Source of the DNA: Squalus acanthias
Lineage: Eukaryota
Length of the DNA: 64,000 nt
Reading direction: 5' to 3'
Assembly (NCBI GenBank): GCA_030390025.1
Contig: CM059431.1
Coordinates: 103,170,001 to 103,234,000 of the forward strand
Positions 5,774-60,774 of the stretch are shown here, in pieces (position 1 is the first letter of the stretch; each line of letters begins with the position of its first letter). Both the position numbers and the translations under genes were made by a program. Below the pieces are notes generated by a model. The model was not told the origin of the DNA, searched no databases, and worked only from the letters and a program-made list of their open reading frames with translations.

Positions 5774-6666
5774 GGGGGAAAAATTCAGTATCGCCCCGTT
5801 TGGGGCGCAATTATCGGCCGGGCGCAAAGATTAGCGCCTGACGCTAATTATCGCCTCCGACTGCAAACTTGACTTTTATTGCCCCTGGAGGTGATTGGAG
5901 CGCTAAATCAAGCGCTTCACACCTGTCTTAAAGCGCAAAGGCCGAGGAGCGAGGCGCTACCTCAGAGCGCTGGCGAAGCTCATGTAATGTCAGTCAGCAA
6001 TGGAACACACACACAATGGCACGGGCCAGTTCTTAAAGGGGATGGTTAATCTTGCTTTCCATCCACATCCTGTTCATTGCAGCCTTGAATCTCGGCCTGG
6101 AGAGACTTGCACATCAAATGTGCTGGAAAGAACAATGGAGAGTACCAGGCAAAGAGCTCAGAGTGCAGCCCCCACAGTCTCTTCTAAATCGATACAAGGA
6201 AGGGCAAATCAAAATGAACCTGCAAGGTGCTGCTCAGTACCCAAAACTCCTTCACACAGCGTTGAATCTCTCCAGAAGTCTCTCTCTCTCTCTCTCAGAA
6301 TGCAGGGTTCAAAAATGTCACCAACAATAAGAGGCAGGAAGCAGTCGCCTTTAAATAGCGCTCCCCCAGTCCCTTCCTGACTGCAAAATGCTCCCCTCAA
6401 CCTGTCGTTGCTAGCTGCAGGCGGTAAGGCAGGGGGCGCCACTCAATATCTGCTCCGGGGCGATACCGAGGCGTTGCGCACTCGACTGACGTCACGATCT
6501 GCCGGCGCAGGAGATCGTGGCGGTAGTGTTTAGTGCCGCCGCAAAATGTCTAGTTAATTTCACGAGCGGCGCAAACATTGCTGCGCCCGGGCGCTAGATG
6601 CTTTGCGCCCCATTAGCGCCCTCTTAAGGCGCTAACGGGAGGCGCAACCAACTGAATTTTCCCCTC
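5774..6666. mobile_element. Non-autonomous Harbinger element (MITE) related to the 23547/49664 family
   Basis: TIRs GGGGGAAAAATT / AATTTTCCCCTC with ATA TSD (5771-5773, 6667-6669); ends homologous to both ends of 23547-27761; keeps the start of the Myb/SANT gene (MESTRQRAQ); near-identical copy at 48759-49652. Confidence 0.9.
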
Positions 6667-21990: not shown

Positions 21991-23718
21991 TTGGAATGAC
22001 GCATGAGTTTGGTAATTGCTACTAATTTCGTAATGAAAAATTGGTATGGCGGGGGGTGGGGGGGGGGGGGGGGGGGGGGGGTTGGCGTGACCACAGCACA
22101 ATACGGAACTGTTCATATAAAGCAAAAAGATAATAACGCAGCTAAGAGGCGGAACATTTTGTTTGAGCAATGAGCCAACAGACAGCAAAATTCTGACAAC
22201 AGTTCGTTACAACAAAGTCCTCTTTGCAATTTATACTATGTTGTTTACTCGCAGACAATTTCCTCCCATTAAAATTGTAGTTACGGCCCTGGAATTACAC
22301 AGGTGGAACATTCAGGTAGATACGGAAGAGATAAGAAGCTTTCCAATGAAAGGAAAATGACAGGGCTAAAATTAATGTATCAAACACACTCCAGAATAAA
22401 GGGGACAAAAGGAACCTTGAGCTGTTTTTGACGTTAATTATTTGCACAATATTAAAAATGCTATCTCCTGCTCTGAGTCTTTGCTTTTTTTTGAGATATC
22501 CACGCTAGATACCAGTAAGGTCTTGTGCTCCTCCAATCTTTTTTCCCTTTCCTGAAGACTTGGTGAATTGTGTTGCCGCTTAAATTCAACCACACCGACA
22601 GCTCTCTGTTACTTTTGCCATCTGACTACTCCTAATTTGTATACTGTGTGTGTGTGTGTGTATTCAACAATGGGATAAGAACATAAGAACATAAGAAATA
22701 GGAGCAGGATGAGGCCATTTGGCCCCTCGAGCCTGCTCCGCCATTCAATAAGATCATGGCTGATCTGATCTTGGCCTCAACTCCACTTCCCTGCCCGCTC
22801 CCCATAACCCTTGACTCCCCTGTTTTTCAAAAATCTGTCTATCTCCACCTTGAATATATTCAATGACCCAGCCTCCACAGCTCTCTGGGGTAGAGAATTC
22901 CAAAGATTCACGACCCTCTGAGAGAAGAAATTCCTCCTCATCTCTGTTTTAAATGGGCGACCCCATATTCTGAAACGATGCCCCCTAGTTCTAGATTCCC
23001 CCACGAGGGGAAACATCCTCTCTGCATCTACCCTGTCACGCCCCCTCAGAATCTTATATGTTTCAATAAGATCACCTCTCATTCTTCTAAACTCCAATGA
23101 GCCTGCTCAACCTTTCCTCATAAGAAAACCCCTTCAACTCAGGAATCAATCTAGTGAACGTTCTCTCAACTGCCTCCAATGAAAGTATATCCTTCCTTAA
23201 ATAAGGAGACCAAAACTGTACGCAGTACTCCAGGCATGGTCTCACCAACAGTTGTAGCAAGACATCCCCACTTTTATACTCCATCCCCCTTGCAATAAAG
23301 GCCAATATTCCATTTACCTTCCTAATTACTTGATGTACCTGCATGCTAACTTTTTGTGTTTCGTGTACAAGGACACCCAGTTCCCTCTCTACCGCAGCAT
23401 TCTGTAGTCTCTCTCCATTTAAATAATATTTTGCTTTTTTATTGTTCCTACCAAAGTGGATAACCTCACATTTTCCCACATTATACTCCATCTGCCAAAT
23501 TTTTGCCCACTCACTTAACCTATCTATATCCCTTTGCAGACTCTTTGGGGTAAAAATTCAGTTGGTTGCGCCTCCCGTTAGCGCCTTAAGAGGGCGCTAA
23601 TGGGGCGCAAAGCCGCTAGCGCCCGGGCGCAGCGATGTTTGCGCCGCTCGGGAACTTAACTAGACATTGTGCGGCGGCGCTAAACTTTACCGCTGCGACC
23701 ACCTGCGCGCGCAGATTG

Positions 23719-23863
23719 TGACGTCATTCCATGGTGCAACGCCCTTGTGGCGCCCCGGAGCGGAAATTGAGTGGCGCCCCCTGCCTTACCGCCTGGCGCA
23801 TCCAACGACCGGAAGACTGGAACGCTATCAATCGCTGTGGGGCTGGGGGGGGCGCTATTTAAA
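23719..23863 (+). promoter_or_regulatory. Putative transposase promoter: CRE palindrome plus TATA
   Basis: TGACGTCA at 23719-23726, TATTTAAA at 23856-23863; same layout at 56530/56657 and inverted in the MITEs. Confidence 0.55.
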
Positions 23864-24057
23864 GGGGGCCTCTTCCTGTCTTTTTCTGTGGTTGACATTT
23901 TTGCACCACTCGTTCTGAGAGAGAGAGAGAGATTCGGAGAGAGAGAAAGAGAGACTTCTGCATTGAGTCAACGCTTTGTGAGGTAGTTTTGCCTACTGAT
24001 CCTAACTTCGCTGGTACTTTGATTGCTGTCCTTCATAACTTTGCTTGCAAAGAGACT

Positions 24058-25218
24058 ATGGGGGCTGCACTGATTGGGGGCGTCATCCTGCTCCAGCTGA
24101 ATCGGAGGACACAGAGACGCAGAGAGAGAGTGGCAATGATGGCCAGACGGAGGAGGGCCAACAGGCGTATGTACAGGAGAGCTTACCCTCCCACGGTATA
24201 TCGTGAACAGCTCTCCTACATTCATATGTCTGAGGAGCTGTGTTTGCGAAGGCTGCGATTCAGCAAGGAGGTGGTCACTGAGCTCTGCCACCTGCTGCAG
24301 CCAGATCTGCAGCCTCAACTGAGGTCCAGGATGTCTCTGTCGGGGGCAGTGAAGGTCACAGTGGCTCTCAACTTCTATGCTACTGGCTCATTTCAAGCTG
24401 CTGCTGGGGACCTCGCCAATATCTCCCAGTTCGCGGTGCATTGCTGCATCCGTCAGGTCACAAATGCCCTCTTTAAAAGGAGACGAGAGTTCATCTCTTT
24501 CCCCATGACCCTAGACAAGCAGCGTGACCGCGCTCTGGGCTTTGCGAGGATAGCGGGCTTCCCCATGGTGCAGGGCGCCATTGACTGCACGCATGTGGCT
24601 TTGCGTGCTCCACATGAGAATGCCGAGGATTTCCGGAACAGAAAGGGGTTCCATTCCTTGAATGTTCAGTTGGTCTGTGACCACAGACAGCTGATACTCG
24701 CTGTCAATGCCCACTATCCTGGCAGCTGCCACGATGCTTTCATCCTGCGCCAGACTACTGTGGGAGAACTTTTCGAGGTACCGCATCAGCCAGTTGGTTG
24801 GCTTCTCGGGGACAAGGGGTATCCACTGAGCACCTGGCTGATGACACCGCTCCGTACGCCCAACACCCCTGCTGAGCTGCGGTACAACGAGAGCCATCAA
24901 GCTACCAGGAACATCATTGAGCGCACAATCGGCGTGCTGAAGCAACGGTTCCGCTGTCTCGACCATTCTGGAGGAGCCCTGCAGTACTCGCCTGAGCGAG
25001 TATCCAACTTCGTAGTTGTGTGCTGCATGTTGCCTAACATGGCAATCGTCAGGACCCAGCCAATGCCACCAGGCCTTGGAGCACCACCAGAGGAGGAGGA
25101 GGAAGAGGAGGAAGAGGACGAGGAGGATGATCATCAGCAGCACCAAGGCGGGATGGCGGCCCACAATGGTGAAGCTGCAAGGGCCGTCCGTCAACGGCTG
25201 ATAGCAAGCCGCTTCTAG
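24058..25218 (+). CDS. Harbinger DDE transposase (HARBI1-like), 386 aa
   Basis: GAIDCTH, RKGFHSLNVQ, HDAFIL, LLGDKGY, NIIERTIGVLKQRFRCL; acidic tail; CCMLPN where sister copies have CCMLHN. Confidence 0.93.
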   Translation: MGAALIGGVILLQLNRRTQRRRERVAMMARRRRANRRMYRRAYPPTVYREQLSYIHMSEELCLRRLRFSKEVVTELCHLLQPDLQPQLRSRMSLSGAVKVTVALNFYATGSFQAAAGDLANISQFAVHCCIRQVTNALFKRRREFISFPMTLDKQRDRALGFARIAGFPMVQGAIDCTHVALRAPHENAEDFRNRKGFHSLNVQLVCDHRQLILAVNAHYPGSCHDAFILRQTTVGELFEVPHQPVGWLLGDKGYPLSTWLMTPLRTPNTPAELRYNESHQATRNIIERTIGVLKQRFRCLDHSGGALQYSPERVSNFVVVCCMLPNMAIVRTQPMPPGLGAPPEEEEEEEEEDEEDDHQQHQGGMAAHNGEAARAVRQRLIASRF

Positions 25219-25530
25219 GGCCCCTGCTGTGGAAATGGCTTCTGCCATTGCTAACAACATCAATGAACCCAGCACGCAACCCCTAAGCCGGCCAAGGCAC
25301 CAATGATTCCAAACACCAAACATGTATATTTTGAATACAAAAACTTATTTATTTTACAAACTCTGTGTGTGTCATTTCCTCATGACAAACTCATAGAAAT
25401 AAACACAAAAAAACAGTCATTAATATAACTGGTTCTCACAACCTGGAGATAATGTCCAAAACACTAGACAAAAGTTGGACCACGAACCTCGGCCTTTAAT
25501 AAAAAAATGACCAGCATTTTGTCACACCTC

Positions 25531-27404
25531 CTACTTTTTGCCCTTCGAGGGTGATCTCCTTCCCTTGCGCACTTCCCCCCTTCTAACCCTACTGCTCCTC
25601 CGTAATGGGACCTCAGTGGCTGCAGCAAGGCTGGTGGAAGGCTGCTGATTGTCAGACCCTGACACTGCAGATGCCCCTGAAGGACGGCCTCGACCAGTTC
25701 TGGGCCTGGAGGGCCCGGCTGCAGACTGCACCAACTCTGCATGGGCAGCAGCAGTCTGTCCTACAGGCGGTGGCAAGTGCAGTGGAGAAGTGACAGTGTT
25801 GGCAGCAGGAATGCTGTCATCGTGAGAGATGACAGCAACTCCCTGCTCGACCGACACACTGGCACTCCCATGGGGCAGCACTTCAGCATCCGGAGCAATC
25901 TGCTGGAGCACAGATTGCTGGCCTGCTGCGGCGCGGTGAGAGCCCCGGGGACATGTGAACGAACCATCGAGGTTGGCAGCAGTCAGTGCTCGCGTGGCCT
26001 CAATCTGAGTCTGCATGAGAGCAGTCAGAGATGGGATCACGGCAGTCAGTGACTGAATTGCAGCACTAAGCTTTAGTGTGGCATCCGCCTGTGCTACAGC
26101 AAAGTGCTCCACACTCCTTGCCAGTGACTCAATGCATTCGGGCACCCTTCCCACTGCACCCATGAGCTCAGTGTGCATGCCCACCGCCTGGGTGTTCATT
26201 TCTGCGATCAGCCGCTCCTCCTCTGCGTCCATTGCAGTAGGAGTCTCTGGCATACTCTCCCTCTGGGGAGAAGGCCCCCGTTCTTCCCTACCCCCATGGC
26301 GTTGCTGCAGCCCGCTGGGTCCTGGAGCTTCACCCTCATCAGACCCTTCCCCCCTGCTCCCCTCCAGGGAAGGCGTGTTCCCAGTGTGGGCATGGGCTTC
26401 CTCGGGAGAGGGTGGCACTGATGCTCCGGCTTCCTCTTCCTCCTCGGCTGCAGCTTCACTCCCACTGGCAGCTTCAGGGCCCGTCTCCTCAGCTGGTGAA
26501 TCACCATCTGAAAGCAGGGAGGTACAAGAGTGGCTTTAGCGTGAGGACAGGGTGGCAGTAAGGGAGGAATAAGTGCAGCGAGTTAGCAAGTTGGATTGAA
26601 AGTGTCAAAGGCTGGTGTTGTGAGGGACAAGTGGAAGGACAGAGGACAAAAAGGTGATGACCTTACCATTGCTGTCCAGAACGGGGTCGGCGTCTCCAGT
26701 GGCGACGGGACCGATCACCCGGCTTGCCACAATCCTGTGGATGCGCTCCTCAAGATCGCTGAGGGGTTGCAGCTGAGGCTGCCCTCCACCTGTCCGTTGC
26801 TGCTGTCTCCTATTATGCGCCAGCTTGGCCTGCAAGAAAAAGGACAGCATCTGAGTAAATATACAGCCATGGTCTTGCCTGATGTGCCTCCCATAGGTGA
26901 ATAGCCCTTACTGTATACAGCCATGGTCTTGCCTGATGTGCCTCCCATAGGTGAATAGCCCTTACTGTATACAGTCATGGTCTTGCCTGATGTGCCTCCC
27001 ATAGGTGAATAGCCCTTACTGTATGCAAAGTGTGGAATGTGTGTGTGTGTTTCATGAAAGGGCCATAGGTGTTGGATGAGTGTTGTGCATTGCGGTTTTA
27101 AGACCCTCTGGCCATAGAGTGAGGTTGAGATGGAGGGATGGAGAGGTATTGAGAAAAAGCCACTCACCCTGACGACCCGAGTGAGGTCGTTGAACTTTTT
27201 GCGGCATTGAACATGGGTCCTGGGCACCATGCTCCTGGAGGAGACGCTCTGAGCCACCTCCCTCCACACTCTTCTGTACTCGCGTGGCAAAGGCCTCCTG
27301 CCACTCTCAGGGAAGAGTATGGATCTTCTGCGCTCCACCGCGCCAACCAGAGCATCCAAGGCCCGCTCGGTGAAGCGCTGAGCTCGTTCTCTCACCCTCT
27401 CCAT
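25531..27404 (-). CDS. Harbinger Myb/SANT-like DNA-binding protein, 3 exons (27404-27168, 26829-26667, 26507-25531), 458 aa
   Basis: RFTERALDALV..WREVA..RTHVQCRKKFNDL trihelix motif; GT-AG introns join in frame (237+163+977 nt); basic C-terminus. Confidence 0.85.
26860..27022. repeat. 54-bp tandem repeat x3 in intron 1 of the Myb/SANT gene
   Basis: Unit ATACAGCCATGGTCTTGCCTGATGTGCCTCCCATAGGTGAATAGCCCTTACTGT. Confidence 0.95.
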
Positions 27405-28983
27405 CCTTGGCTGCAAAATGGATTCACAGGTCTCTCCAGGCCGAGATTCAAGGCTGCAATGAGCAGGGTGTGGCTGGGGAGCAAGTTGGCCCCCCCCTTT
27501 ATGAACTGGCCGGCGCCAGTGTGTCTGTGTTCCCTCGCTAACTGGCAGCACCTGCGCTGCACTCGCGCGCTGAGTTAGCGCCTCACTGCTTGGCCTTTGC
27601 GCCTTAAGACAGGTGTGCAGCGCCTGATTTAGCGCTCCACTCACTTCCCGGGGCGGTAAAAGTGAAGTTTCCAGTCAGTGGCGATAATTAGCGCCAGGCG
27701 CTAATTTTTGCGTCCAGACGATATTTGCGCCCCAAACGGGGCGCAACCTAATTTTTCCCCCTTTGTGTCCTCCTCACAACTTGCTTTCCCACCTAACTTT
27801 GTATCGTCAGCAAATTTGGCTACAGTACACTCGGTCCCTTCATCCAAGTCATTAATATAGATTGTAACTAGTTGAGTCCCCAGCACTGATCCCTGTGGCA
27901 CCCCACTAGTTACAGTTTGCCAACCGGAAAATGACCCATTTATTCCGACTCTCTGTTTTCTGTCAGTCAGCCAATCCTCTATCCAGTCTAATATATTACC
28001 CCCAACCCCGTGCGCTCTTATCTTGTGCAGTAACCTTTTATGCGGCACCTTATCGAATGCCTTGTGGAAGTCCAAATAAACCACATTTTGCATCACAAGC
28101 AAGCTCGATCATGTCCCTATTGTATACTTGCACATGTAAATTAGCAGCAAGTGTCACGGAATAGTAATCAGGAGCAGGAACTCTGGTTCATTTTATTCCA
28201 CGCCCTCCATCACCATCCTGAAAACCAAGAGATGGGGTGGGGGGCGGGGGGGGGGGGGTGCATTCTGTCTTCCTGATGTATGTGTCTCTATAATAACGCC
28301 ATTGACCCACGGAGCCACTGCAGCAGGCAAATCGTCATACCCCACACAGTTAATTTTACAGGGGATGGTATACTTGGCACAGGATTTGTGCAGCGCTGTT
28401 TATGCAAATTAATAAAAGCACAGTTTGTTATATTTGTGTATCAGTCTGTTTCATTGCGGTTTGTAAATCGACCCACTTTTGCAGGAAGTTGCTGAGTGTA
28501 AACGAAGGCAAGTGTTGGATCAAAACGGTCTACGTTTTGCTCCAACGCATGGAGATAGTTGGGGAACATTTCACACTTAGGTTCACACCTAGCGACTTAA
28601 TTATCTGCCTGGCTGAGCAATGAGAGTGGGGAAGCATTTTGGTAGAACGTACGCTCAGATTAAATTTGGATTACTTCGGAATGAATTAGCGTTTCATGCA
28701 CGCCGGCTGCTACCCTATCCACGAGCATTGCAATTTAAAAAAAACATTCATTCTCGGGATGTGGGTGCCGCTGGCAATGCCAGCATTTATTGCCCCCTCC
28801 CCAATGGCCCTCGAGAAGGTGGTCTTGAACCGCTGCAGTCCGTGAAATGCGTGCATTGTTTATAAAATAAAAGGCATGGTAAATAAAAACCAAGACCGGC
28901 TTAGTGACCAGCACCAATGCCACACCTTGTAGCCATGTGAAGTTAAAGCCAAGTTTGGAAGTTATTCATTGCATCCTTTATTT

Positions 28984-34100: not shown

Positions 34101-34299
34101 ATCGTTGGATGAGAACCTTCAGCAAGCTGAGTTAGACGACACTGGTGACATGGAGTCATAACGGCACAGAAGGAGGCCACTCAGCCCATCGAGTCCATGC
34201 CAGCTCTCTGTACAGCAATCCAGTCAGTACTGTTCCCCGCTCTATCCCCGTAGCCCTGCAAGTTTATTTCCCTCCACTGGACCCAACTTTTGTTTCTTT

Positions 34300-42100: not shown

Positions 42101-43688
42101 TGTAATAGGGGAAGTTTCCGTCCTTATATGTGATTTCAATTGATTGCTGGCTCTGGGGAGTATAAAATCCCAGAGGCACCCAGGTTCCAAATGATTCGAG
42201 GTTGACCCGTATTGGTGACAGTGATTTAACTTTATTTAGCACAAGCAAGACTGAATACGTTACAGTTTACAGAGAATAATTGAGACTTATATTACCACTT
42301 ATACGCTGGGTAGAAGCCGCAACCGTGAGTAAGTTGCACCCTGTGTCTCTTGTCTCTCATCTCTCCTCGTCTCCCAGGAGTCTCTTTGATTCTTCCTGAA
42401 ATCTTCTACTCCTGAAATCTTCTACTCCTGAAATCTTCTACAATTTGTGGCTGTTAAGACCCCTTTCTTATACCCTTACTCTTATTCAAAACCAATGGAG
42501 TTCTCCTGAACCAATCACTGGCTGACACCCAAACCCAAAATCCAATCATAAGGATGCCATGTCCGTAGCACTCCGGCTTACGCAGGTTTTTGGTCTGATG
42601 ACACTCTCACATCACCTGTTTCTGACCATCAAGACTCAGATCTGGGGTAGTTATGGCAACACAAAGGAATATTTCTCCACGGGTTGAGATATGGCCCCTG
42701 CTGTTGGCCTTTGTTTTTATAATTCACTGCGGATGTTATAAAAAAGAAAGAAATACTTGCATTTATGTAGCGCTTTTCACGACCACCGGATGACTCAAAG
42801 TGCTTTACAGCCAATGAAGTGCTTTTGAAGTGGGAAACGCAGCAGCCAATTTGTGCACAGCAAGCTTCCACAAACAGCAATGTGATAATGACCAGATAAT
42901 CTGTTTTAGTGATGTTGAGTGAGGGATAAATATTGGCCAGGACACCGGGGGATAACTCACCTGCTCTTCTTCGAAATAGTGCCTTGGGATCTTTTGCATC
43001 CACCCGAGAGAGCAGACGGGGCCTCGGTTTAACGTCTCATCCAAAAGACGGCACCACCGACAGTGCAGCACTCGCTCAGCACTGCACTGGAGTGTCAGCC
43101 TGGCTTTATGTGCTCAAGTTCCTGGAGTGGGACTGTGAACCCACAACCTTCATGACTCAGAGGCGAGTGTGCTACCCACTGAGCCACGGCTGACGCTATA
43201 CACTCCCAGCACAATTCTAACTGCACCTGACCTTGGTTCCCAGGCTAGCTGCAGTCTATTCGACCTTGGCAATGTCTTCCTCACCCCAGGCTGTCTGGTT
43301 ACAGCTTCCTCACAGACTTTTAATTATAAGCAAAAAGGGTTACATGTCATATATAATTCAGGTTATCATTGCATGCAGTTGATGATTACAGACTTTTATA
43401 TTTAATTCTTACACACAATTATAAATCTATTGCTGATATTGTATCACTAAAGATAGAAAACAGGTATTCAAAAAACCAACTAACATGTAATTCATAACAA
43501 TCTTACGGTCCCTGCCTCTTATCTCAGTCTCTGGAATTCCATTAACTCTTTCAGCTTTTCTCACAGACTGACTGTCGCTTTGCTAACGAGGCTTGTTGGA
43601 GTTGGCACTTGTAATATTTGGTCAAGTAGGCCCAACGCCTCTGTCTTCCATTTTAAAATCTAACCGGGTCTACCCAAGGCATATTACA
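42101..43688 (-). mobile_element. Solo LTR containing a SINE
   Basis: TGTAATA...TATTACA termini; flanks CCAG/CTAG (one mismatch); TTTATT at 42231; 3x short repeat at about 42393-42440. Confidence 0.65.
42741..43194 (-). mobile_element. Deu-domain tRNA SINE, full length
   Basis: Reverse-complement homologue of 527-987. Confidence 0.88.
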
Positions 43689-44168
43689 CTAGTTTAAAAG
43701 CATGATTATTCAGGAATCGGCATGCATTGACCAACAGTTACATAACACAAACTTAAACCTGCAACTAATGATGCTTATTTCGTTTCATCCATGTTAGTTA
43801 GTGGGAATCTGAAATGGAGATTTCTCAGGATTCTTACAGAGCAACCTGTGGTGGAGCACTGAATGATTGACCGCAACAGTGACTCTGTGGGCTGGATTTT
43901 GCCATTGGGGGCGGGCTGGGGTGTGTCAGGTGGTTTTCATGTCAGGAGCCCGACTCCGATGTGAAGTGGGAAAAAAGTGCGATTTTGCCCTAATTGGGCG
44001 CTTGATTTCCAGCGTGTGGAAACCCCTGGCCCAATGAGTCTTTTCATACAGAAAGTCGCCTCTGATGACGTCATCAATGTTGCTGGATTTAAGGCCTGCA
44101 AGCAGCCTTGCTTCTTCTGGAGACTTTAAACTTTGTGCCCATTGTTGTGATCGCTTCATTCAGCAACT

Positions 44169-47100
44169 ATGTCCAGCAGTAGGCCAACATGTGCTCCAAG
44201 GTTCGATGAGGCCTCCCTCCAAGCTCTGGTGGAGGGAGCAAGATCAAATAAGGAGGTGCTCTTCCCTTCCTCAGGGAGGAAAGAGTCTCCCCAGCAGACT
44301 AAAGCTGTGTGGATGCAAGTGGCCCAGGAGGTCAACTCAATCTCTATGTGCCGCAGAACCTGGCTGCAGTGCAGGAAGAGGTTTCATGACCTCCGCACAG
44401 GAAAAGTGAGTATGACTTTCCCATCACCCTCAATCTGATCCCCATCACCTCTCCTCACCAGCATTCTGCTTTGCCAACCTCTTCCTCCACATCCCACTTG
44501 ACACTTGACATCCCTGCACCCTTACCCATTCCCTCTCTCTCTATGGTCACATTCACTTAACTATTCGACCATGCAGCCCTCACACTCCCTATCACTGTGA
44601 TGCAATGACAACAACTTACAACACACAGGGAGGGCCCTTGGTCTTGGGACATCACTCCATCTTTGTTTCCTTCTAAGCATCTATGCTATGGATTCTCTAC
44701 ACTCACACCTTCATTCTCACTCAAACTCCACTTGTGTCCCTCATTGCAGGAAAAGAGAGCCCACAATAAGAGGGAAAGAGCGAGGACAGGAGGAGGGCCA
44801 CCCTCAGTAGCCCAGCTCACCACCTCGGAGGAGGCGGCCCTGGAAATCGCTGGTGTCGAGGACGATGTGCAAGTGGGGGACGGACAGACGGGTGCATCAC
44901 AGCAAGCTGGTGACAGAATAGTTTGGCATCTCTCTGACATTGCATGAGTAACTGGTAATGATTCTGATGCTCTAACAGATTGACTTATGATCATCTGCAC
45001 AATTCAATGTGCATGCAACCTTTACCTCACATCTCTAACTCTTTCCTTTATTCCCCACAGGACCATCGACAGCCCCCGTCCCCACTGTCCAGGAGGAACA
45101 GCCTGAGCCTCAAGACTCCTCAGAGGAAGCTGCAACCTCTGAGGGCCCAGCCTCAGCAGAATTCAGCGTACCCAGCACCAGCACAGACACTCACACCTCG
45201 GTGGCACCTTCGCGAGATAGAGTAGTATTGTCACCTGGTGTATCACAGCTCACAAGTGAGCATCAGCAGATGGTGGAGACAGGGACAGCAGTGGAGAGTC
45301 CTCATTGGAGGGCGCAGGACTTGAAGGGATAATTACAAGTCCTAGCCCTTTCAGACTACCCCAGGCGTATTCCCCAGACGTTTACCTTCAACTAAAGTTA
45401 GCGGTAGCCGGATCCCATAAGACGCTTAATTGGGTCTAAAGGTCAGACTACCTCTCCCTAAAGGAAAGAAACGGTCTAAAGATGTTTCCGTGCTCCGGAT
45501 AGTACTTTTAATAAGTTTAACTAAACTGTAACCTTCCGGATATTATGAGGGTCCGGAATACCCCCAGAATTCTGCAACTCCTTTGAGTGTACAGGAATTG
45601 AGTTCGCAAGATGATACAGAAATACTCTTTGAGATAATTCTAAAAATATATAGATTTATTAAAGAACCGACATTTAGATAACATTTATTATGGCAATCAC
45701 TACTTTAACCGTTCAAAATACAAATAGCTTACATTTCTTATCAGAGATCCTTATTCTCAAATCTTAACTTCATTACATTTCCACTCTTCCACTTATTTCT
45801 TAATCCAGAATATCCACCAAAATCAAATACCTTGATTACCCGAGACTCAAAATTGAAAACTTACAGAGAGTGTCTGTGAAGTTGAGAAACACTTGTCTTC
45901 CCAGCGACTTCTGACTTTCTGTTTGAAAAGGTCTATTTTTATATCTTTTTTGGGTGGTTTATTCTTTGAAGTTTCTGTGGCTGTAAGCTAATTGTCTTTA
46001 TTGATATCTCTGTTGAATGCTTTCTGTCTTTACTGTCAATTTAGCCATTGCATGCATAATTATGTCTCTACTTTAGATGTTTCAAAAACCATCATAAACA
46101 CAATGACAGCAATGGTTTCTGTTTGATGCAATTCTTATCGAAGTCTTTCTATTGAATTTCTAATATTACTTTAACTGGTTATTATCAGACATTGGTATTC
46201 CAAGTTCAATACAAGAACAATGTAATTGCTTGGTGCATCCATTGAAGTAATATTTTCAAAGTCGTCTTGTTTGTGTACCTTTTACAACTTGTAAATACTT
46301 CATCTAGGGTGTTCCATACATTTCTTATTTACTTCAATTGGTTTTTATCAGACCTCGGGACTCAAGCTTAACATTAAAACTATTTGTTCAGCAGGCGTTT
46401 CTTTTACTTGATGTCATTTCTTCAAAGCCTTCTGTAGGTATCATATTTACAATATGTAAATTGAAAACACTTTAACTCAGTGCTTACTTGTTTTCTAGCT
46501 ATCTCAATTGGTTGCATATTTAATCGTGTTTCCTGTCTTATTTGATGTTATATTATGAAGGCTTATGGTTGTTTAATATTCTAAGTTTCTGTTTGCATCA
46601 GTGTTAGCTTTTGACACTTTAAACTGGGTGATTCCATTGTTCTTCTCCCAAACTCTAGACACTCTGGAAGCAATCCTTTGCTTTATCAATGGGGCTTGTT
46701 TCTTGGTCAATATCCCATTCCCATTTCAAAGCTTGTGGTGTTTTACAACTTTGTTTAACAACTGATCTTTATCTCAGAAGCCTGTATTGTGCCTGCAGCC
46801 TGTGTCTGCTAAGGCTTATGTCTTTTAAACCCAGTATGTCATTTATTAATCATTTCAGAAATCTGTTCTTAGTATCGTGTATTTTTCTGAATTCTGGCTA
46901 TTCCTTCACAGACTCTCCCAGCTCGGCTCAGCTGCATGTCGACCCTGTGCCTCTGGGTCCATCCAGAAGGAGAGCGGTGCTGGAACTCCAGGAACAGGTG
47001 CAGGAGTCTCTAGCAGGTTTTGTCTCCAGGGTCGCTGCGAGTGTGGAGCGAATAGAGGAGTCCATCGCTAACATGAGCAGAGCCTTTGTGGAGGCGTTGG

Positions 47101-47741
47101 CGCATGAACGCATCACCACGGAAAGGATGGCAACCTCCATGGAAAGGATGGCTACGGTAGAGGAAAGGATGGCTACGGTAGAGGAGAGGATGGCTACGGC
47201 CATGGAGGAGCTAAGTCGATAAAGTGTTGAAAACATGGTCATTGTTCAGAATAGACTGACATCTCTTGAGGAGCAATGGTCAGCTATTGAGCATAGAAAC
47301 CAGACCTTCATGGAAGTCCTCTGGAGTAGGACTTCCAGTGCAGAAACGGGTCCTCATGGCCCCCCTGAAGTGCAGCAAGGTACTGTCAAGCCACTTGCTA
47401 GCTCTGAAGTGGGGCTGACCCATGAGAGGGATGTTGGTGGCAGACAACAAGGAAGTGGGGGCTCCTCTCCAATCGCTCACACGACCATGCCATTGCAAAG
47501 CCCTCGGTCAGAGCCCCACCAGAGTCCTCAACCAACTGAGATGGGCGTCTCAGCCCCTGCACAGCCGCAGGAGCAGCAGACTGTTGTCGAGCCCTCACAG
47601 GCTCGCAGCCCCAGAGGACGGCCGCCAAAGGTGTCGAGACAGGAGCAGCAAGAAAGTGAGCAAGGGGCCTCCACATCTGCTGAAGCCACAGGGGAAGCAC
47701 CACGTAGGAGCACGCGTAAGAGGAAGATAAAGCACAAGTAG
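44169..47741 (+). pseudogene. Myb/SANT-like gene of element D (exons 44169-44405, 44750-44909, 45061-47741), disrupted by LTR and an in-frame TAA
   Basis: APRFDEASLQALV..WMQVA..RTWLQCRKRFHDL; AHNKRERARTGGGPP; exon 3 rejoins in frame across the LTR; TAA at 47220-47222. Confidence 0.82.
45322..46910 (-). mobile_element. Solo LTR, about 1.6 kb, related to 6974-8074
   Basis: TGAAGGGAT...CCTTCACA, 4-bp TSD GACT (45318-45321, 46911-46914); reverse-complement homology to the 6974 LTR. Confidence 0.88.
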
Positions 47742-48758
47742 TCACAAGGGTAGTCACTTGTGTGTTCTGTTGTATTGTTTTTTGACAAGCCATCCTTGTA
47801 ATGCGATGATAAACAGATTTGATGGCAAACTGTTGAAGTTGTGGCCTGTGTCATCTCGCAAATGCGACTTCCACATTGAGGGCTTAGGGCGACTTGCAAT
47901 TGTCAGTATGGTGGTCAGAGTGAAAGGAATTCGTAGGTTCTTGTCCATTGTCGATGCTCTGATAAGAAGGTGCGAGGCAAAAGTGTTTGATTGTGCAGGC
48001 TAAGCAAATCTGGCCAACATGAGTGCGTCCCTTGCATCGTGGGCAGCAATGTGGTCGCGCGCTGGCGCCTTCTGACCTATGCAATTTCAGGTGGGTGAGC
48101 AGCAGCTTGGCGCTCCTGTTGTTGCTGCTGCTGTTGGTGCTGCTGTTGTTAATGTTTCTGCTGCTGCCGCGGCTGGTCTTCGTCCGAATCTGATGTCCAG
48201 GTGGGAAGGAAATAAATGATTCTCATATATGCCTCAGTTGAGGAAGCGCTCAGTCAAGGTGGGGAGAGGGGTTTCCCAGGAGGTCACACTGGAGATGGGT
48301 GTCAAGCTCCAAACTTCCACAACAATGAGTATGCCTGCTGAAAGTTCCCCTAGACCTGAGACAACAAAGTTCTGCCACCTACAAATGATCATCGGTGAAA
48401 ACTCCTTTGTAATGGTGGAGCTGCAGCTGTTAGTAAGCAATCCACTTGTGAGGCTGCCAGGATTAACTGGCGTGTTCCAGAGGAGACGTGCAGGATGGGG
48501 GAAATGTGTTAAAATCAGAAAGGCCTCTCAAAATGGGATTATAGAGGCAATTAACTGGTTGTTAAGGGCCTTAAGGGCCTATCCCGCCACTTGGAGGCGG
48601 GATGGAAACGGGGTCTGAAACCCTGATTCTGGGAAAATTGCTCAGAGGCGGGATGGAGGCGGGATCGGAGCCGCCCGCCATTTTTTGCGATTTTAATATC
48701 TCATACACCTCCAATCCCGCCTCCTCAGCCCTGGCAAAATCGAGCCCTATGACTCTTT

Positions 48759-49652
48759 GGGGGAGAAATTCAGTATCGCCCCATTTGGGGCGCAATTATC
48801 GGCCGGGCGCAAAGATTATCGCCTGGCGCTAATTATCGCCACCGACTGCAAACTTGACTTTTATCGCCCCTGGAGGTGATTGCAGCACTAAATCAGGCGC
48901 TTCACACCTGTCTTAAGGCGCAAAGGCCGAGGAGCGAGGCACTACCTCAGAGCGCTGGCGAAGCTCATGTAATGTCAGTCAGCAATGGAGCCCACACACA
49001 ATGGCACGGGCCAGTTCTTAAAGGGGATGGTTAATCTTGCTTTCCATCCACATCCTGCTCATTGCAGCCTTGAATCTCGGCCTGGAGAGACCTGCACATC
49101 AAATCTGCTGGAAAGAACAATGGAGAGTACCAGGCAAAGAGCTCAGAGTGCAGCCCCCAAAGTCTCTTCTAAATCGATACAAGGAATGGCAAATCAAAAT
49201 GAACCTGCAAAGTGCTGCTCAGTACCCAAAACTCCTTCACACAACGTTGAAGCTCTCCAGAAGTCTCTCCCTCTCTCTCTCAGAATACGTAGTTCAAAAA
49301 TGGCACCAACAATAAAAGGCAGGAAGCGGTCACCTTTAAATAGCGCTCCCCCTTTCCCTTCATGACTGCAGAACGCTCCCCTCAACCTGTCGTTGCTAGC
49401 GTCAGGCGGTAAGGCAGGGGGCGCCACTCAATATCCGCTCCGAGGCGATACCGGGGCGTTGCGCACTCGACTGACGTCACGATCTGCCGGTGCAGGAGAT
49501 CGTGGCGGTAGTGTTTAGCGCCGCCGCAAAATGTCTAGTTAATTTCACGAGCAGCGCAAACTTCGCCGCGCCTGGGCGGCAGATGCTTTGCGCCCCATTA
49601 GCGCCCTCTTAAGGCGCTAACGGGAGGCGCAAACCAACTGAATTTTTCCCCC
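48759..49652. mobile_element. Harbinger MITE, sister of 5774-6666
   Basis: TIRs GGGGGAGAAATT / AATTTTTCCCCC, TSD TTT (48756-48758, 49653-49655). Confidence 0.92.
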
Positions 49653-50020
49653 TTTGACTCTATGGGGTAGAAATTAGGTCGCGCCCCATTTGGGGCGCAA
49701 ATATCGTCCGCGCGCAAATATTAGCGCCTGGCGCTAATTATCGGCACTGACAGGAAACTTCACTTTTACCGCCCCGGGAGGTGAGTGGAGCGCTAAATTA
49801 GGCGCTGCACACCTCTCTTAAGGCGCAAAGGCCTAGGAGTGAGGCGCTAACTCAGCGCACGAGCGCAGCGCAGCTGCTGCCAGTTAGCGAGGGAGCACAG
49901 ACACACTGGCGCCGGACACTTCTTAAAGCGGGGGGGGCCACTTGCTCCCCAGCCACACCCTGCTCATTGCAGCCTTGAATCTCAGCCTGGAGAGACCTGT
50001 AATCCATTTTGCTGCCAAGA

Positions 50021-52032
50021 ATGGAGAGGGTGAGAGAACGCGCTCATCGCTTCACCGAGCGGGCCTTGGATGCTCTGGTTGACGCAGTGGAGCGCAGACG
50101 ATGCATGCTGTTCCCAGAGAGTGGCAGGAGGCCTTTGCCACGCGAGTTCAGAAGAGTGTGGAGGGAGGTGGCTCAGAGCGTCTCCTCCAGGAGCATGGTG
50201 CCCAGGACCCATGTCCAGTGCCGCAAGAAGTTCAACGACCTCACTCGGGTCGTCAGGGTGAGTGGCTTTTTCTCAATACCTCTCCATCCCTCCATCTCAA
50301 CCTCACTCTATGGCCAGAGGGTCTTAAAACCCCAATGCACAACACTCATCCAACACCTATGGCCCTTTCATCAAACACACACACACATTCCACACTTTGC
50401 ATACAGTAAGGGCTATTCACCTATGGGAGGCACATCAGGCAAGACCATGGCTGCATATTGTAAGGGCTATTCACCTATGGGAGGCACATCAGGCAAGACC
50501 ATGGCTGCATATTGTAAGGGCTATTCACCTATGGGAGGCACATCAGGCAAGACCATGGCTGCATATTGTAAGGGCTATTCACCTATGGGAGGCACATCAG
50601 GCAAGACCATGGCTGTATATTGACTCAGATGCTGTCCTTTTTCTTGCAGGCTAAGCTGGCTCATAATCGGAGACAGCAGCAACGGACGGGTGGAGGGCGG
50701 CTTCAGCTGCAACCCCTCAGCGATCTGGAGGAGCGCGTCCACAGGATTGTGGCAAGCCGGGTGATCGGTCCCGTCGCCACTGGAGACGCCGACCCCGTTG
50801 TGGACAGCAATGGTAAGGTCATCACCTTTTTGTCCTCTGTCCTTCCACTTGTCCCTCACAATACCAGCCTTTGACACTTTCAATCCAACTTGCTAACTCG
50901 CTGCACTTATTCCTCCCTTACTGCCACCCTGTCCTCACGCTAAAGCCACTCTTGTACCTCCCTGCTTTCAGATGGTGATTCACCAGCTGAGGAGATGGTC
51001 CCTGAAGCTGCCACTGGGAGTGATGCTGCAGCTGAGGAGGAAGCCGGAGCATCAGTGCCACCCTCTCCCGAGGAAGCCCATGGCCACACTGGGAACACGC
51101 CTTCCCCGGAGGGGAGCAGGGGGGAAGGGGCTGATGATGGTGAAGTTCCAGGACCCAGCGGGCTGCAGCAACGCCATGGGGGGGGGAGGGAAGAACGGGG
51201 GAGCAGGGGGGAAGGGGCTGATGATGGTGAAGTTCCAGGACCCAGCGGGCTGCAGCAACGCCATGGGGGGGGGAGGGAAGAACGGGAGCCTTCTCCCCAG
51301 AGGGAGAGTATGCCAGACACTCCTAATGCAATGGACGCAGAGGAGGAGCGGATGATTGCAGAAATGAACAGCCAGGCGGTGGTCATGCACACTGAGCTCA
51401 TGGGTGCAGTGGGAAGGGTGCCCGAATGCATTGAGGCACTGGCAAGGAGTGTGGAGCACTTCGCTGTAGCACAGGCGGATGCCACACTAAAGCTTACTGC
51501 TGCAATTCAGTCACTGGCTGCCAGGAACCTATCTGAGCCTGCTCTCATGCAGACTCAGATTGAGGCCACGCGAGCACTGACTGCTGCCATCCTCGATGGT
51601 TCGTGCACATGTCCCCGGGGCTGTCACCGCGCCGCAGCAGGCCAGCAATCTGTTCTCAGGCAAATTGCTCCGGATGCTGAAGTGCTGCCCCGTGGGAGTG
51701 CCAGTGTGTCGGGCGAGCAGGGAGTTGCTGTCCTCTCTCACGATGACAGCATTCCTGCTGCCAACACTGTCACTTCTCCACTGCACTTGCCACCGCCTGT
51801 AGGACAGACTGCTGCCGCCCATGCAGAGTTGGTGCAGTCTGCAGCCGGGCCCTCCAGGCCCAGAAGTGGTCGAGGCCGGCCTTCAGGGGCATCTGCAGTG
51901 TCAGGGTCTGACAAGCAGCAGCCTTCCACCAGCCTTGCTGCAGCCACTGAGGTCCCATTACGGAGGAGCAGTAGGGTTAGAAGGGGGGAAGTGCGCAAGG
52001 GAAGGAGATCACCCTCGAAGGGCAAAAAGTAG
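50021..52032 (+). CDS. Harbinger Myb/SANT-like protein, 3 exons (50021-50257, 50650-50812, 50972-52032), 486 aa
   Basis: GTGAGT/GCAG and GTAAGG/TCAG introns; joined 237+163+1061 nt open frame. Confidence 0.87.
50400..50617. repeat. 54-bp tandem repeat x4 in intron 1
   Basis: Same unit as 26860-27022, one extra copy. Confidence 0.95.
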
Positions 52033-52326
52033 GATGTGTGCCAAAATGCTGGTCATTTTTTTATTAAAGGCCGAGGTTCATGGCCCAACTTTTGTTTAGT
52101 GTTTTGGACATTATCTCCAGGTTGTGAGAACCAGTTATGTTATTGACTGTTTTTTGGTGTTTATTTCTATGAGTTTCTCATGAGGAATTGACACACACAG
52201 AGTTTGTACAATAAATAAGTTTCTGTATTCAAAATATACATGGCTGGTGGTTGGAATTATTGGTGCCTTGGCCGGCTTAGGGGTTGCGTGCTGGGTTGAT
52301 TCGTGTTTGTAGCACTGGCAGGGGTC

Positions 52327-53487
52327 CTAGAAGCGGCTTGCTATTAGTCGTTGACGGACGGCCCTTGCAGTTTGACCATTGTGGGCCGCCCTCCTGCCTT
52401 GGTGCTGCTGCTGATCATCGTCCTCGGCCTGTTCCTCCTCTTCCTCCTCCTCCTCTTGTGGTGCTGCAAGGCCTGGTGGCATTGGCTGCGTCCTGAGGAT
52501 TGCCATGTTGTGCAACATGCAGCACACCACTACGAATTTGGAAACTTGCTCAGGCGAGTACTGCAGGGCTCCTCCGGAATGGTCCAGACAGCGGAATCGT
52601 TGTTTGAGCACGCCGATTGTGCGCTCAATAATGTTCCTCGTTGCTTGTTGGCTTTCCTGGTACCGCAGCTCAGCAGGGGTGTTTGGCGCACGGAGCGGTG
52701 TCATCAGCCAGGTGCTCAATGCGTACCCCTTGTCCCCCAGAAGCCAACCAACTGGCTGATGCGGTGCCTCGAAAATTTCTGCCACAGTACTCTGGCGCAG
52801 GATGAAAGCATCGTGGCAGCTGCCCGGATAGTGGGCATTGACAGCGAGAATCACCTGTCTGTGGTCACAGACCAACTGCACATTCAAGGAATGGAACCCC
52901 TTTCTGTTCCGGAACTCCTCTGCATTCTCTCGCGGAGCACGCAAAGCCACATGCGTGCAGTCAATGGCGCCCTGCACCATGGGGAAGCCCGCTACCCTCG
53001 CAAAGCCCATAGCACGGTCATGCTGCTTGTCTGGGGTCATAGGGAAGGAGATGAAGTCTCGTCTCCTTGTGAAGAGGGCATTGGTGACCTGCCGGATGCA
53101 GCGATGCACCGCAAACTGGGAGATATTGGCGAGGTCCCCAACAGCAGCTTGGAATGAGCCAGTGGCGTAGAAGTTCAAGGCCACTGTGACCTTCACTGCC
53201 ACCGACAGAGACGTCCTGGACCTCAGCTGAGGCTGCAGATCTGGCTGCAGCAGGTGGCAGAGCTCAGTGACCACCTCCTTGCTGAATCGCAGCCTTCGCA
53301 AACACAGCTCCTCGGACATGTGGATGTAGGAGAGCTGTTCACGATATACCCTGGGAGGGTAAGCTCTCCTGTACATGCGCCTGATGGGCCTCCTCCGTCT
53401 GGCCATCATTGCCACTCTCTGTCTGCGTCTCACTCTGCTCCGATTGAGCTGGAGCAGGACGACGCCCCCAATCATTGCAGCCCCCAT
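52327..53487 (-). CDS. Harbinger DDE transposase, 386 aa, intact
   Basis: GAIDCTH, LLGDKGY, NIIERTIG, CCMLHN all present. Confidence 0.94.
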   Translation of the reverse strand: MGAAMIGGVVLLQLNRSRVRRRQRVAMMARRRRPIRRMYRRAYPPRVYREQLSYIHMSEELCLRRLRFSKEVVTELCHLLQPDLQPQLRSRTSLSVAVKVTVALNFYATGSFQAAVGDLANISQFAVHRCIRQVTNALFTRRRDFISFPMTPDKQHDRAMGFARVAGFPMVQGAIDCTHVALRAPRENAEEFRNRKGFHSLNVQLVCDHRQVILAVNAHYPGSCHDAFILRQSTVAEIFEAPHQPVGWLLGDKGYALSTWLMTPLRAPNTPAELRYQESQQATRNIIERTIGVLKQRFRCLDHSGGALQYSPEQVSKFVVVCCMLHNMAILRTQPMPPGLAAPQEEEEEEEEQAEDDDQQQHQGRRAAHNGQTARAVRQRLIASRF

Positions 53488-53974
53488 CTTCTCTTTGCCA
53501 GAAAAGTAATGAGGTACAGCAACGAAAGTAGCAGCAAAGTTAGGATGAACTAGGCAAAACTACCTCACAAAGCTATAACTTGAGGATTTCCACGTTTAAC
53601 TGCGCATGCGCTGACTCCAGAAGTTGCGGTCAGTTTCAGAGGGGTGATGACAGAGAACGCTGGCAGTTTCGCCGTCATTACCGCTGCAAAATCCGAGCCA
53701 ATAGGTGAAAAAGAGCATGTTCAACCAAGGAGCACACTGCTTATAATTTATACTTTCTGTCACTGGTGGTCGTTCGAATATCAAACTTGAAGAAACAAAT
53801 ATTATTTTTGCCCTGTTCTCTGAAAGTAAATGATCTATCTGCCTTGGGGGTGAGGGAATGAGTGGGGGGGGGGGGAGGCGATGGGATGGGGGTTGTGGGC
53901 GAGGTAGGTGGGGTCTCTTTGGCATTAGGTTAGCTCCAAGATGACACAACTGGCAACGGAAGAGTGCAAGTGAG

Positions 53975-54629: not shown

Positions 54630-55007
54630 TTCCATGCAGTGCTGAGGAAGTGCTGTACTGTCGGAGGTGCTGTCTTTCGGATGAGACGTTAAACCGAGGC
54701 CCCGTCTGCCCTCACAGGTGGACGTAAAGATCCCATGGCCACTATTTCGAAGAAGAGCAGGGGAATTATCCCCAGTGTCCTGGCAAATATTTTTCCCTCA
54801 ACCAACATAACAAAAACAGATTATCTGGTCATTATCACATTGCTGTTTGTGGGACCTTGCTGTGCGCAAATTGGCTGCCGCGTTTCCCACATTACAACAG
54901 TGACTCCACTTCAAAGGTACTTCATTGGCTGTAACGCGCTTTGAGACGTCCGGTGGTCGTGAAAGGCGCTATATAAATGCAAGTCTTTCTTTCTTTCTTT
55001 CTTTCTC
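54630..55007 (+). mobile_element. Deu-domain SINE, 5' truncated
   Basis: Deu domain and (TTTC)n tail. Confidence 0.85.
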
Positions 55008-55009
55008 CG

Positions 55010-60138: not shown

Positions 60139-60774
60139 GGGCTGGATTTTGATACTGGGTCGGGTTGGGGTCGTGTTATCCACCCGACTGCAATTGGATG
60201 TGGGAGATTGATGCGATTTTCACCCTATTGGGCAATTGAGTTCCAGCATGTGGGAACCCATGACCCAATCAGTGTTTTCAGTTTGAAAGTCGCCTCTGAT
60301 GATGTCATCATTGCTGCTGCATTGAAGGTCTGCAAAGACTGCCTGGCCTTTGCTGTGAGAGGACCTGAAGGCAAAATGAGCAGCAGCAGTCCTAAGTCTG
60401 CTCCCAGATATTTTTCCTACTACTACTTCTCCATTGTAATAGTGGACCTGCAGCTGATAGTCAGCTTTCGAAATGTGCTCCCGCCAGGTTTCACAATCGT
60501 GGTTCAGAACAGGCGTGCTTCACGTAGAACAAGGGTTAAAATCACAACGGCCTTTCAAAATGGCATTATAGAGCCAATTTAGTGCTTGTTAAGGGCCTTA
60601 ACAGCCTATCCTGCCTCTTAAAGGCGGGACGGAGTCGGGACCAGCAGACACGATTTAATGAAAATTGCGTGGAGGCGGGATGGAGGTGGACTTGTGCCCG
60701 CCCGCCAGTTTTCGCAATTTTAACCCCCCACACGCCTCCAAACCCGCCTCCATGAGTCAATGAAAATCCAGCCC
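60139..60774. mobile_element. Harbinger MITE related to family D
   Basis: TIRs GGGCTGGATTTT / AAAATCCAGCCC, TSD TTG (60136-60138, 60775-60777); GAAAGTCGCCTCTGATGA and GTTAAGGGCCTTAA shared with 43889-48747. Confidence 0.88.

What the first reader, a model, noticed from the sequence alone, without database searches (positions are those of the whole stretch)
43881..53573. Three Harbinger elements docked in consecutive units of an 8-bp repeat: sequence-targeted transposon array
Seen: GACTC-TGT-[D 43889-48747]-TAT-GACTC-TTT-[MITE 48759-49652]-TTT-GACTC-TAT-[B 49664..]. Removing the elements leaves (GACTCTNT)3 with one insertion per unit at the same register. Element A, 20 kb away, sits independently in GACTC-TTT-GTGTC and the family D MITE in AACAC-TTG-ATGTC, suggesting a quasi-palindromic RACWC-NNN-RWGTY target. 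Two TIR families with divergent SANT proteins share it. Established: zebrafish Harbinger3_DR prefers AAACACCWGGTCTTT, and CR1 tails in this window are 8-bp repeats such as GATTCTAT. Inference: these Harbingers home to CR1-tail-like octamer repeats as a safe haven and build tandem arrays whose outer ends could move as a composite. Caveats: D's TSD has one mismatch, B's second TSD is lost, and some MITEs (5774, 15736) fit the motif poorly.
Basis: partly seen in the sequence, partly recalled or inferred. Interest (0 to 1): 0.82.

Follow-up and report, generated by a model that had tools for sequence, protein, structure and literature searches.

The report
Harbinger train in orphan octamer repeat
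Three separate cut-and-paste Harbinger transposons sit 11 letters apart in a tiny 8-letter repeat of a shark-like genome, likely because each repeat unit happens to spell the landing sequence that these transposons also prefer at ordinary sites, not because they seek a safe haven.

Summary
Elements D, M and B are joined by 11-bp spacers (3-bp duplication, GACTC, 3-bp duplication). B's second TAT is present after all (53574-76); only its right 426 bp are gone.

Flanks of hundreds of copies in relatives' contigs give half-sites AGACAC/AGAGAC and GTGTTT, which match zebrafish Harbinger3_DR's known 15-bp target apart from the central triplet. All 4 dispersed window copies with two flanks fit this consensus (9-11 of 12 positions), and none lies in an octamer repeat. 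A GACTCTAT repeat fits at one register (9 of 12). Its 8-bp period (3 + a shared 5-bp half-site) leaves neighbouring sites intact after each insertion, which likely explains the train.

New here: no CR1 body precedes the repeat. It is a 27-bp insert flanked by AAC inside a multicopy host element whose other copies lack it, likely a tail-only CR1. Safe-haven homing and movement of the whole array are unsupported; the share of insertions in such repeats could not be measured. The scan noted the same pattern before on other DNA of this genome (e.g. e1-8154118). Precedents in print include pineapple microsatellite-MITE clusters.

The parts
43200..43838 (.). Unidentified multicopy repeat (U) abutting the host element; left limit not determined
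   Evidence: Covered by many diverged contigs in all 4 runs; listed pieces stop at 43834-43839; mixed flanks behind 43838 in X16 (14 contigs) and X15 (24)
43839..43877 (+). Left piece of host element E (multicopy), ending CGCAAC
   Evidence: Depth about 1800-2800 in 4 runs; 23 contigs of X16 leave the window at 43877 and continue with sequence matching 53580 onward
43878..43888 (+). Start of the 27-bp octamer insert: first unit plus D's left duplication TGT
43889..48747 (+). Element D: non-autonomous Harbinger, TIR GGGCTSGATTTTGCC, Myb/SANT exon at 44169-44405, no transposase hit, 1.6-kb insert at 45318-46911
   Evidence: TIRs; PF13873 E 8e-12; tblastn with B's transposase gives no hit in D; contigs skip about 45317-46911 in all 4 runs
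48748..48758 (+). Spacer TAT-GACTC-TTT (D's right duplication, shared half-site, M's left duplication)
48759..49652 (+). Element M: 894-bp non-coding derivative of the A/B TIR family
   Evidence: TIRs and 94% identity to copy 5774-6666; ends match those of A and B; hundreds of copies in relatives
49653..49663 (+). Spacer TTT-GACTC-TAT
49664..53573 (+). Element B: two-gene Harbinger lacking its right 426 bp; Myb/SANT exon 50024-50257 (+); open 386-aa DDE transposase 52330-53487 (-)
   Evidence: PF13873 and PF13359; 94% identical to element A over aligned columns; motifs AIDCTH, LGDKGY, IERTIG; best relatives are cartilaginous-fish proteins named putative nuclease HARBI1, up to about 65% identity
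53574..53579 (+). TAT (matches B's left duplication) then AAC (matches the last 3 bases of E's left piece)
53580..53699 (+). Right piece of host element E, ending in a D-like terminal repeat
   Evidence: 26 of 30 letters match the X16 continuation (by eye); its last 27 letters hit once in the window, at 53583, with 3 mismatches, 0 hits in 100 shuffles; end sequence
23547..27761 (-). Comparator: element A, full-length relative of B, in AGACTC-TTT-GTGTCC inside a CR1 RT reading frame
60139..60774 (+). Comparator: D-family MITE in AAACAC-TTG-ATGTCT (11 of 12)
5774..6666 (+). Comparator: M-family copy in AAAGAC-ATA-ATTTCC (9 of 12)

Best explanation
Three Harbinger elements of two families sit one per unit in a 27-bp octamer repeat, likely because they inserted there independently under the ordinary 15-bp target preference of vertebrate Harbingers, which this repeat happens to spell once every 8 bases. 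Steps: (1, shown in paralogous copies from one run) host element E has no octamer at this point. (2, inferred) A 27-bp (TGACTCTN)3-type piece entered E with an AAC duplication, most likely a CR1 insertion truncated down to its tail (about 60%), otherwise repair filler. (3, shown) Both TIR families have flanks of the form ARASAC-WWW-GTSTYT. (4, computed) The repeat fits this at one register, with each GACTC acting as right half of one site and left half of the next; because the period is 3 + 5 and the triplet is duplicated, filling one unit would leave its neighbours' 15-bp sites intact. (5, inferred) D, M and B arrived separately in unknown order; one base of D's duplication changed later. (6, inferred) B later lost its right end by a cut exactly at its terminus, sparing the TAT.
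For: Flank consensus in relatives' contigs: behind M's right end AAA/ATA-GTGTTT in 549, 674 and 333 contigs of X15, X16, X1; before D's left end AGACAC-WTA in 24/42/59/60 contigs and AGASAC-AWT in 35/56/85/68 contigs of X1/X2/X16/X15. Harbinger3_DR's AAACAC-CWG-GTCTTT (PMC3016246, passage) fits all 12 flank positions of that consensus. Window sites, which were not used to build it: 4 of 4 dispersed copies with two flanks score 9, 10, 9, 11 of 12; array sites 9, 9, 7; 0.33% of window positions reach 9 (0.045% with a WWW centre). In the rebuilt empty site the two registers used by D and M are the only ones with 9 of 12 and a WWW centre. M and B duplications are exact (TTT/TTT, TAT/TAT), as a 3-bp model predicts. 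Elements are of different families and structure (D and B SANT domains 49% identical), so not a tandem duplication. The host continues across the array.
Against: The loose-end rows give a plurality consensus only (agreement 0.37-0.44 over 30 letters), and rows at the exact boundary exclude flanks that match the window's spacer, so they cannot give the share of copies in octamer repeats. The plurality left of M in X16 (534 contigs) reads AAAGAT, with T where the consensus has C. I symmetrised the consensus myself. B's site scores only 7 of 12, and two copies with one known flank (15736, 56354) score 3 of 6. Three hits in 27 bp at a site that scores no better than dispersed sites is more than the score alone predicts, so local hopping, chromatin or an unmodelled bias may contribute. 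The host's empty state comes from 23 contigs of 1 of 4 runs among the 24 rows shown (338 not shown) and is paralogous, from a relative, not an orthologous allele. No tandem GACTCTAT tail on a CR1 body was seen in this window.
Confidence: 0.74

Rival explanations
1. Evolved homing: these Harbingers' target preference has been tuned by selection to CR1-tail octamers as a harmless, self-renewing landing pad.
For: Three insertions within 27 bp at one register; the repeat is one transition from GATTCTAT tails seen in the window and from the amniote ATTCTRTG tail (PMC8665684, passage). Unchecked earlier notes report frequent tail hits in this genome.
Against: The consensus already matches zebrafish Harbinger3_DR, so no tuning is needed. 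The plurality half-sites (AGACAC, AGAGAC, GTGTTT) fit the repeat worse than they fit ordinary sites. The GATTCTAT-type tail scores only 7 of 12. 0 of 6 dispersed window copies lie in an octamer repeat, and A sits in a CR1 coding frame.
Confidence: 0.12
2. The train formed in a real CR1 tail elsewhere and moved into E as a composite, bounded by a since-excised element on the left and B on the right.
For: The first spacer is exactly 11 bp from E's junction, like the others. E's left flank CGCAAC is also the left flank of element C at 56354, so this point of E may itself be a Harbinger target. It would explain the missing CR1 body.
Against: It leaves two exact 3-bp matches as coincidences: TAT after B and AAC on both sides of the insert. 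It needs two further events (excision of an unseen element and loss of B's end). In pineapple no identical MITE clusters were found at two places (PMC8449440, passage).
Confidence: 0.07
3. The octamer units were made by the insertions themselves, each new element duplicating 11 bp next to the last one and so regenerating its target, as in a spacer-acquisition array.
For: All three spacers are 11 bp and alike (8 of 11 and 9 of 11). Target regeneration drives P-element dimers (bioRxiv 10.1101/158386, passages).
Against: The last 3 bases of one spacer equal the first 3 of the next (TTT/TTT), which a 3-bp duplication explains with one later change in total, against five differences for an 11-bp model. 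Three of four dispersed copies show exact 3-bp duplications and nothing longer.
Confidence: 0.05

Closest known systems
Harbinger3_DR / Harbinger3N_DR of zebrafish (Sinzelle et al. 2008; paper not held; seen as passages in PMC3016246 and PMC2836001)
   Same: Two genes (DDE transposase, Myb/SANT protein), 3-bp duplication, 15-bp quasi-palindromic target; its flanks AAACAC and GTCTTT fit all 12 positions of the consensus found here.
   Different: Central triplet is AT-rich here (ATA, TTA, TTT, TAT) rather than CWG; host is a cartilaginous fish by protein relatives; trains in an octamer repeat are not mentioned in the passages read.
Microsatellite-targeting MITEs of pineapple, Ac-mMITE-1/2 (PMC8449440, passages)
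   Same: DNA elements of more than one family form non-nested clusters by independent adjacent insertions into a simple repeat; whole clusters do not appear to move.
   Different: Mutator-derived, target (TA)n with variable spacing, and about 74% of copies are in the repeat; here spacing is fixed at 11 bp by an 8-bp unit and most window copies lie outside repeats.
P-element and hobo dimers by double insertion (McGurk and Barbash, bioRxiv 10.1101/158386, passages)
   Same: Target preference alone yields tandem elements, because an insertion does not consume the target.
   Different: There the spacer is the duplication itself (8 bp); here it is two different duplications plus a shared 5-bp half-site, and the elements belong to different families.
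Dada transposons (PMC3706591, passages)
   Same: DNA transposons found in tandem at a preferred multicopy sequence.
   Different: Dada is strictly specific for small RNA genes; these Harbingers use degenerate sites in unrelated sequence.
NuwaII group of the PHIS superfamily (PMC4482050, passages and section 7)
   Same: Conserved C before and G after the 3-bp duplication, GG-starting TIRs, two ORFs.
   Different: NuwaII's triplet is TNA; most triplets here are not (TGT/TAT, TTT, TAT, TTG, ATA). That paper found no PHIS elements in sharks.

Membership tests
PIF/Harbinger (PHIS superfamily) | DDE_Tnp_4 transposase with catalytic triad | tested here: met
   B: PF13359 E 5e-38; motifs at residues 174, 250, 287. 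D and M carry none (non-autonomous).
PIF/Harbinger (PHIS superfamily) | Second gene with Myb/SANT domain | tested here: met
   PF13873 in B (E 1e-9) and D (E 8e-12)
PIF/Harbinger (PHIS superfamily) | Short TIRs starting with G and a 3-bp duplication | tested here: met
   exact triplets for M, B, A, 5774, 60139; one mismatch for D; two for 35768
PIF/Harbinger (PHIS superfamily) | Extended target preference (15 bp in vertebrates; PMC2836001) | tested here: met
   Plurality flanks; window test
PIF/Harbinger (PHIS superfamily) | Two-protein transposition with precise excision | not testable with these tools
   Needs a cell assay
NuwaI group (CWG duplication) | CWG triplet | tested here: not met
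   0 of 7 sites with two flanks
NuwaII group (C|TNA|G) | C before, G after, triplet TNA | tested here: inconclusive
   C before in 7 of 7, G after in 4 of 7; triplet TNA only on one side of 35768; TTA is the plurality in one row. No tree was built.
Strictly target-specific DNA transposon (Dada-like) | Copies confined to one multicopy target | tested here: not met
   Flanks beyond 6 bp are mixed (agreement about 0.4); 6 of 9 window copies lie outside the repeat
Composite transposon | Compatible outer TIRs and a shared outer duplication | tested here: not met
   B lacks its right TIR; D and B TIRs differ; outer triplets belong to D and B separately
CR1 3' tail | Octamer microsatellite of ATTCTRTG type | tested here: inconclusive
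   One transition from GATTCTAT; no tandem GACTCTAT tail on a CR1 body among 13 LINE ends of the window
CR1 3' tail | CR1 3' UTR hairpin directly upstream | tested here: not met
   Upstream is host element E up to 43877; only 2 bases lie between E and the first unit

The most novel reading that the evidence does not exclude
CR1 retrotransposition keeps seeding fresh Harbinger landing pads: even a tail-only 27-bp insertion creates a row of overlapping targets, Harbinger target choice in this lineage is biased towards the C-type tail beyond what the shared consensus predicts, and the resulting trains are remodelled by cuts that pair ends of different elements (B's right end lost exactly to its duplication, at an internal NNN-GACTC site).
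Probability: 0.15. Interest if true: 0.68.

Novelty: new variant of a known kind. Interest (0 to 1): 0.4.

Why it matters
It shows how a known target preference plus simple geometry (period = duplication + one shared half-site) can build in-register trains of unrelated DNA transposons, and how one transposon class (LINE tails) may create hot spots for another. It gives a testable rule: GACTCTAT-type tails should be filled and GATTCTAT-type tails mostly spared. A vertebrate transposase with a 15-bp preference that can load several cargos into a short repeat is of some interest for genome engineering; B's transposase frame is open. It does not show a new targeting mechanism.

Tried and rejected
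No whole genome is held, so no genome-wide logo, tail enrichment or array count. Metagenome scans with TIR patterns: 0 hits, then 1 hit that matches only the 21-base pattern and is taken as chance. Search for a paralogue of the left flank within the window (18.4-19.3 kb, 4.3-4.9 kb, 41.5-41.9 kb): alignment scores no higher than shuffles. A 12-bp match of the left junction to a SINE at 8884 was not pursued: the SINE continues differently. Depth left over at 43878-81 as a measure of octamer-flanked D ends: -147, 121, -1412, 5220 in the four runs, too crude to use. Absence of free near-consensus sites in the window (0 hits): fewer than one is expected by a hand estimate, so it is uninformative. 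The D-MITE score (8) was mis-indexed and is corrected (11). A first Pfam scan of D's SANT exon used the wrong frame, corrected. No contig listed or 23 spans an orthologous empty allele. Look-ups of earlier findings by sequence gave nothing. Literature: no paper held 4 of 5 terms; searches listed none on Harbingers in CR1 tails; Sinzelle 2008 is not held; no supplements were read, and those of PMC4482050 and the Repbase-type sources could list flank logos that bear on novelty.
Full report
1. Observation. The junctions are as described. D (43889-48747), M (48759-49652) and B (from 49664) are separated by 11-bp spacers of the form triplet-GACTC-triplet, and an 11-bp stretch of the same form precedes D. 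D and M have terminal inverted repeats matching at 15 of 16 bases. B encodes an open 386-aa DDE_Tnp_4 transposase and a Myb/SANT exon; its best relatives are cartilaginous-fish proteins named putative nuclease HARBI1 (120 of 247 hits listed). D has a SANT exon 49% identical to B's, no tblastn hit to the transposase and a later 1.6-kb insert. M is a non-coding derivative of the A/B family. One correction: B's homology to its full-length relative A ends at 53573 and is followed directly by TAT, so its second duplication is present and only the right 426 bp are missing.

2. The empty site. No genome is held, so I laid contigs of public runs on the region; their shares of words were about 0.5, so they are treated as relatives. 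In run X16, 23 contigs leave the window at 43877 and continue, with agreement 0.77, with sequence that matches 53580 onward at 26 of 30 letters; its last 27 letters hit the window once, at 53583, and never in 100 shuffles. This row appeared for 1 of 4 runs among 24 rows shown, with 338 not shown. So the array lies inside a multicopy element E whose other copies have no octamer. With D, M and B removed, the window has a 27-bp insert of three TGACTCTN units, flanked on both sides by AAC. No CR1 3' end lies upstream: the flank has no significant match in the window and none of 13 LINE ends found is there. Amniote CR1 tails are ATTCTRTG octamers and most CR1 copies are heavily 5'-truncated (PMC8665684 and PMC4316615, passages); window tails include GATTCTAT units. 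A tail-only CR1 insertion is therefore the likeliest source (inference, about 60%); repair filler is the main alternative.

3. Target preference. Loose ends at element termini give plurality flanks over many loci. Behind M's right end they read AAA- or ATA-GTGTTT (549, 674, 333 contigs in X15, X16, X1; no such row shown for X18), and before its left end AAAGAT-ATA (534 contigs, X16). Before D's left end they read AGACAC-WTA (24, 42, 59, 60 contigs) and AGASAC-AWT (35, 56, 85, 68) in X1, X2, X16, X15. I symmetrised these to ARASAC-WWW-GTSTYT; the T at -1 in the X16 row does not fit. Harbinger3_DR's target AAACAC-CWG-GTCTTT (PMC3016246, passage; 15 bp in vertebrates, PMC2836001, passage) fits all 12 flank positions. 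Window sites are an independent test: the 4 dispersed copies with both flanks score 9, 10, 9 and 11 of 12, the array sites 9, 9 and 7, and two copies with one flank 3 of 6 each. Only 0.33% of window positions reach 9. None of the 6 dispersed copies is in an octamer repeat, and A lies within a CR1 coding frame. Limits: agreement over the 30 letters is only 0.37-0.44, and rows at the exact boundary exclude flanks like the window's own spacer, so the share of copies in octamer repeats is not measured; a depth-based attempt was too crude.

4. Mechanism. A GACTCTAT repeat scores 9 of 12 with a WWW centre at exactly one register, the one used; a GATTCTAT repeat scores 7. GACTC is nearly self-complementary and serves as right half of one site and left half of the next. 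The period is 3 + 5, and insertion duplicates the triplet, so each filled unit would leave the neighbouring 15-bp sites unchanged (computed from the sequence; not shown by experiment). Independent insertions by two families then give a train with 11-bp spacers (inferred). The 3-bp model needs one later change (D's TGT/TAT); an 11-bp duplication model needs five. B's site is weaker (7 of 12), and three hits in 27 bp exceed what the score alone suggests, so other factors may add. B's right end was likely removed by a cut at its terminus, since TAT and AAC are spared; in A the break point is followed by GTT-GACTC, a hint of a second, target-like cut.

5. Rivals. Evolved homing to tails (0.12) is not needed, since the consensus is shared with zebrafish and fits non-repeat sites as well or better, but genome-wide enrichment is untested here. 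Arrival as a composite (0.07) would explain the absent CR1 body but leaves TAT and AAC as coincidences. Duplication by insertion (0.05) fits the triplets worse. Present-day composite movement by D's left and B's right end is impossible as the locus stands, because B has no right inverted repeat.

6. Known systems. The elements pass the PIF/Harbinger tests that could be run; they are not NuwaI (no CWG) and NuwaII is undecided (PMC4482050, passages and section 7; no tree built). Clusters of adjacent independent insertions in a simple repeat are described for pineapple MITEs in (TA)n (PMC8449440, passages), and tandems from target preference for P elements (bioRxiv 10.1101/158386, passages). Strict targeting as in Dada (PMC3706591, passages) is not met. 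Searches listed no paper on Harbinger trains in CR1-type octamers; passages of PMC9179366 and PMC13668399 hold no mention of tandem insertion; Sinzelle 2008 is not held; no supplements were read.

7. Earlier notes. I stated my reading before the first look-up. Several unchecked notes on other DNA of this genome reach the same view, one describing 11-bp-spaced trains in LINE tails seen hundreds of times. I could test the target logic but not those counts, and they are not used as support. They gave the leads to PMC4482050 and the P-element preprint.

8. Verdict. Real, well explained by a known preference and a simple geometric rule; a new variant of a known kind. What this locus adds is an octamer without a CR1 body, shown to be foreign to its host element, and a precisely clipped B end. 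Interest 0.4; most novel reading 15% likely, interest 0.68 if true.

Noticed in passing
window 53560-53579 against 23955-23984: B's break falls where the intact relative A reads GTT-GACTC next, the same triplet-plus-half-site as in the spacers, and the deletion ends exactly at B's terminus, sparing TAT. It may record a transposase cut pairing B's right end with a nested element or an internal site. A stands in for B's lost sequence.
   Followed up: partly
window 45318-46911: 1.6-kb non-coding insert in D with a short (about 4-bp) duplication, absent from other D copies in all 4 runs; related in reverse to 6974-8075 and 63587-63689. Family not identified.
   Followed up: partly
window 56345-56356 and 43869-43877: Element C's left flank (CCGCAAC-TTA) resembles host E at the point of the octamer insert (CCGCAAC-TTC); this motif may be a second recurrent Harbinger site.
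   Followed up: no
window 55005-55438 and 56441-56891: A 92% inverted duplication of element C's left part lies about 1 kb upstream of it, without a terminal repeat.
   Followed up: no
window 23547-27761: Element A interrupts a CR1 reverse-transcriptase frame cleanly, with a TTT duplication.
   Followed up: yes
whole window: At least nine Harbinger-type copies and a further transposase remnant at 33673-34140 in 64 kb of a cartilaginous-fish-like genome, although PMC4482050 and PMC9179366 (passages) found none in the shark genomes they examined; the latter asked for more species.
   Followed up: partly
window 35768-36429: MITE with discordant triplets (TTA, TGT) in a good flank match (9 of 12); may be another case of a replaced duplication as in unchecked note e1-8639894.
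   Followed up: no
window 43200-43838: Multicopy repeat with no match elsewhere in the window and no long open frame; it replaces E's left end.
   Followed up: partly
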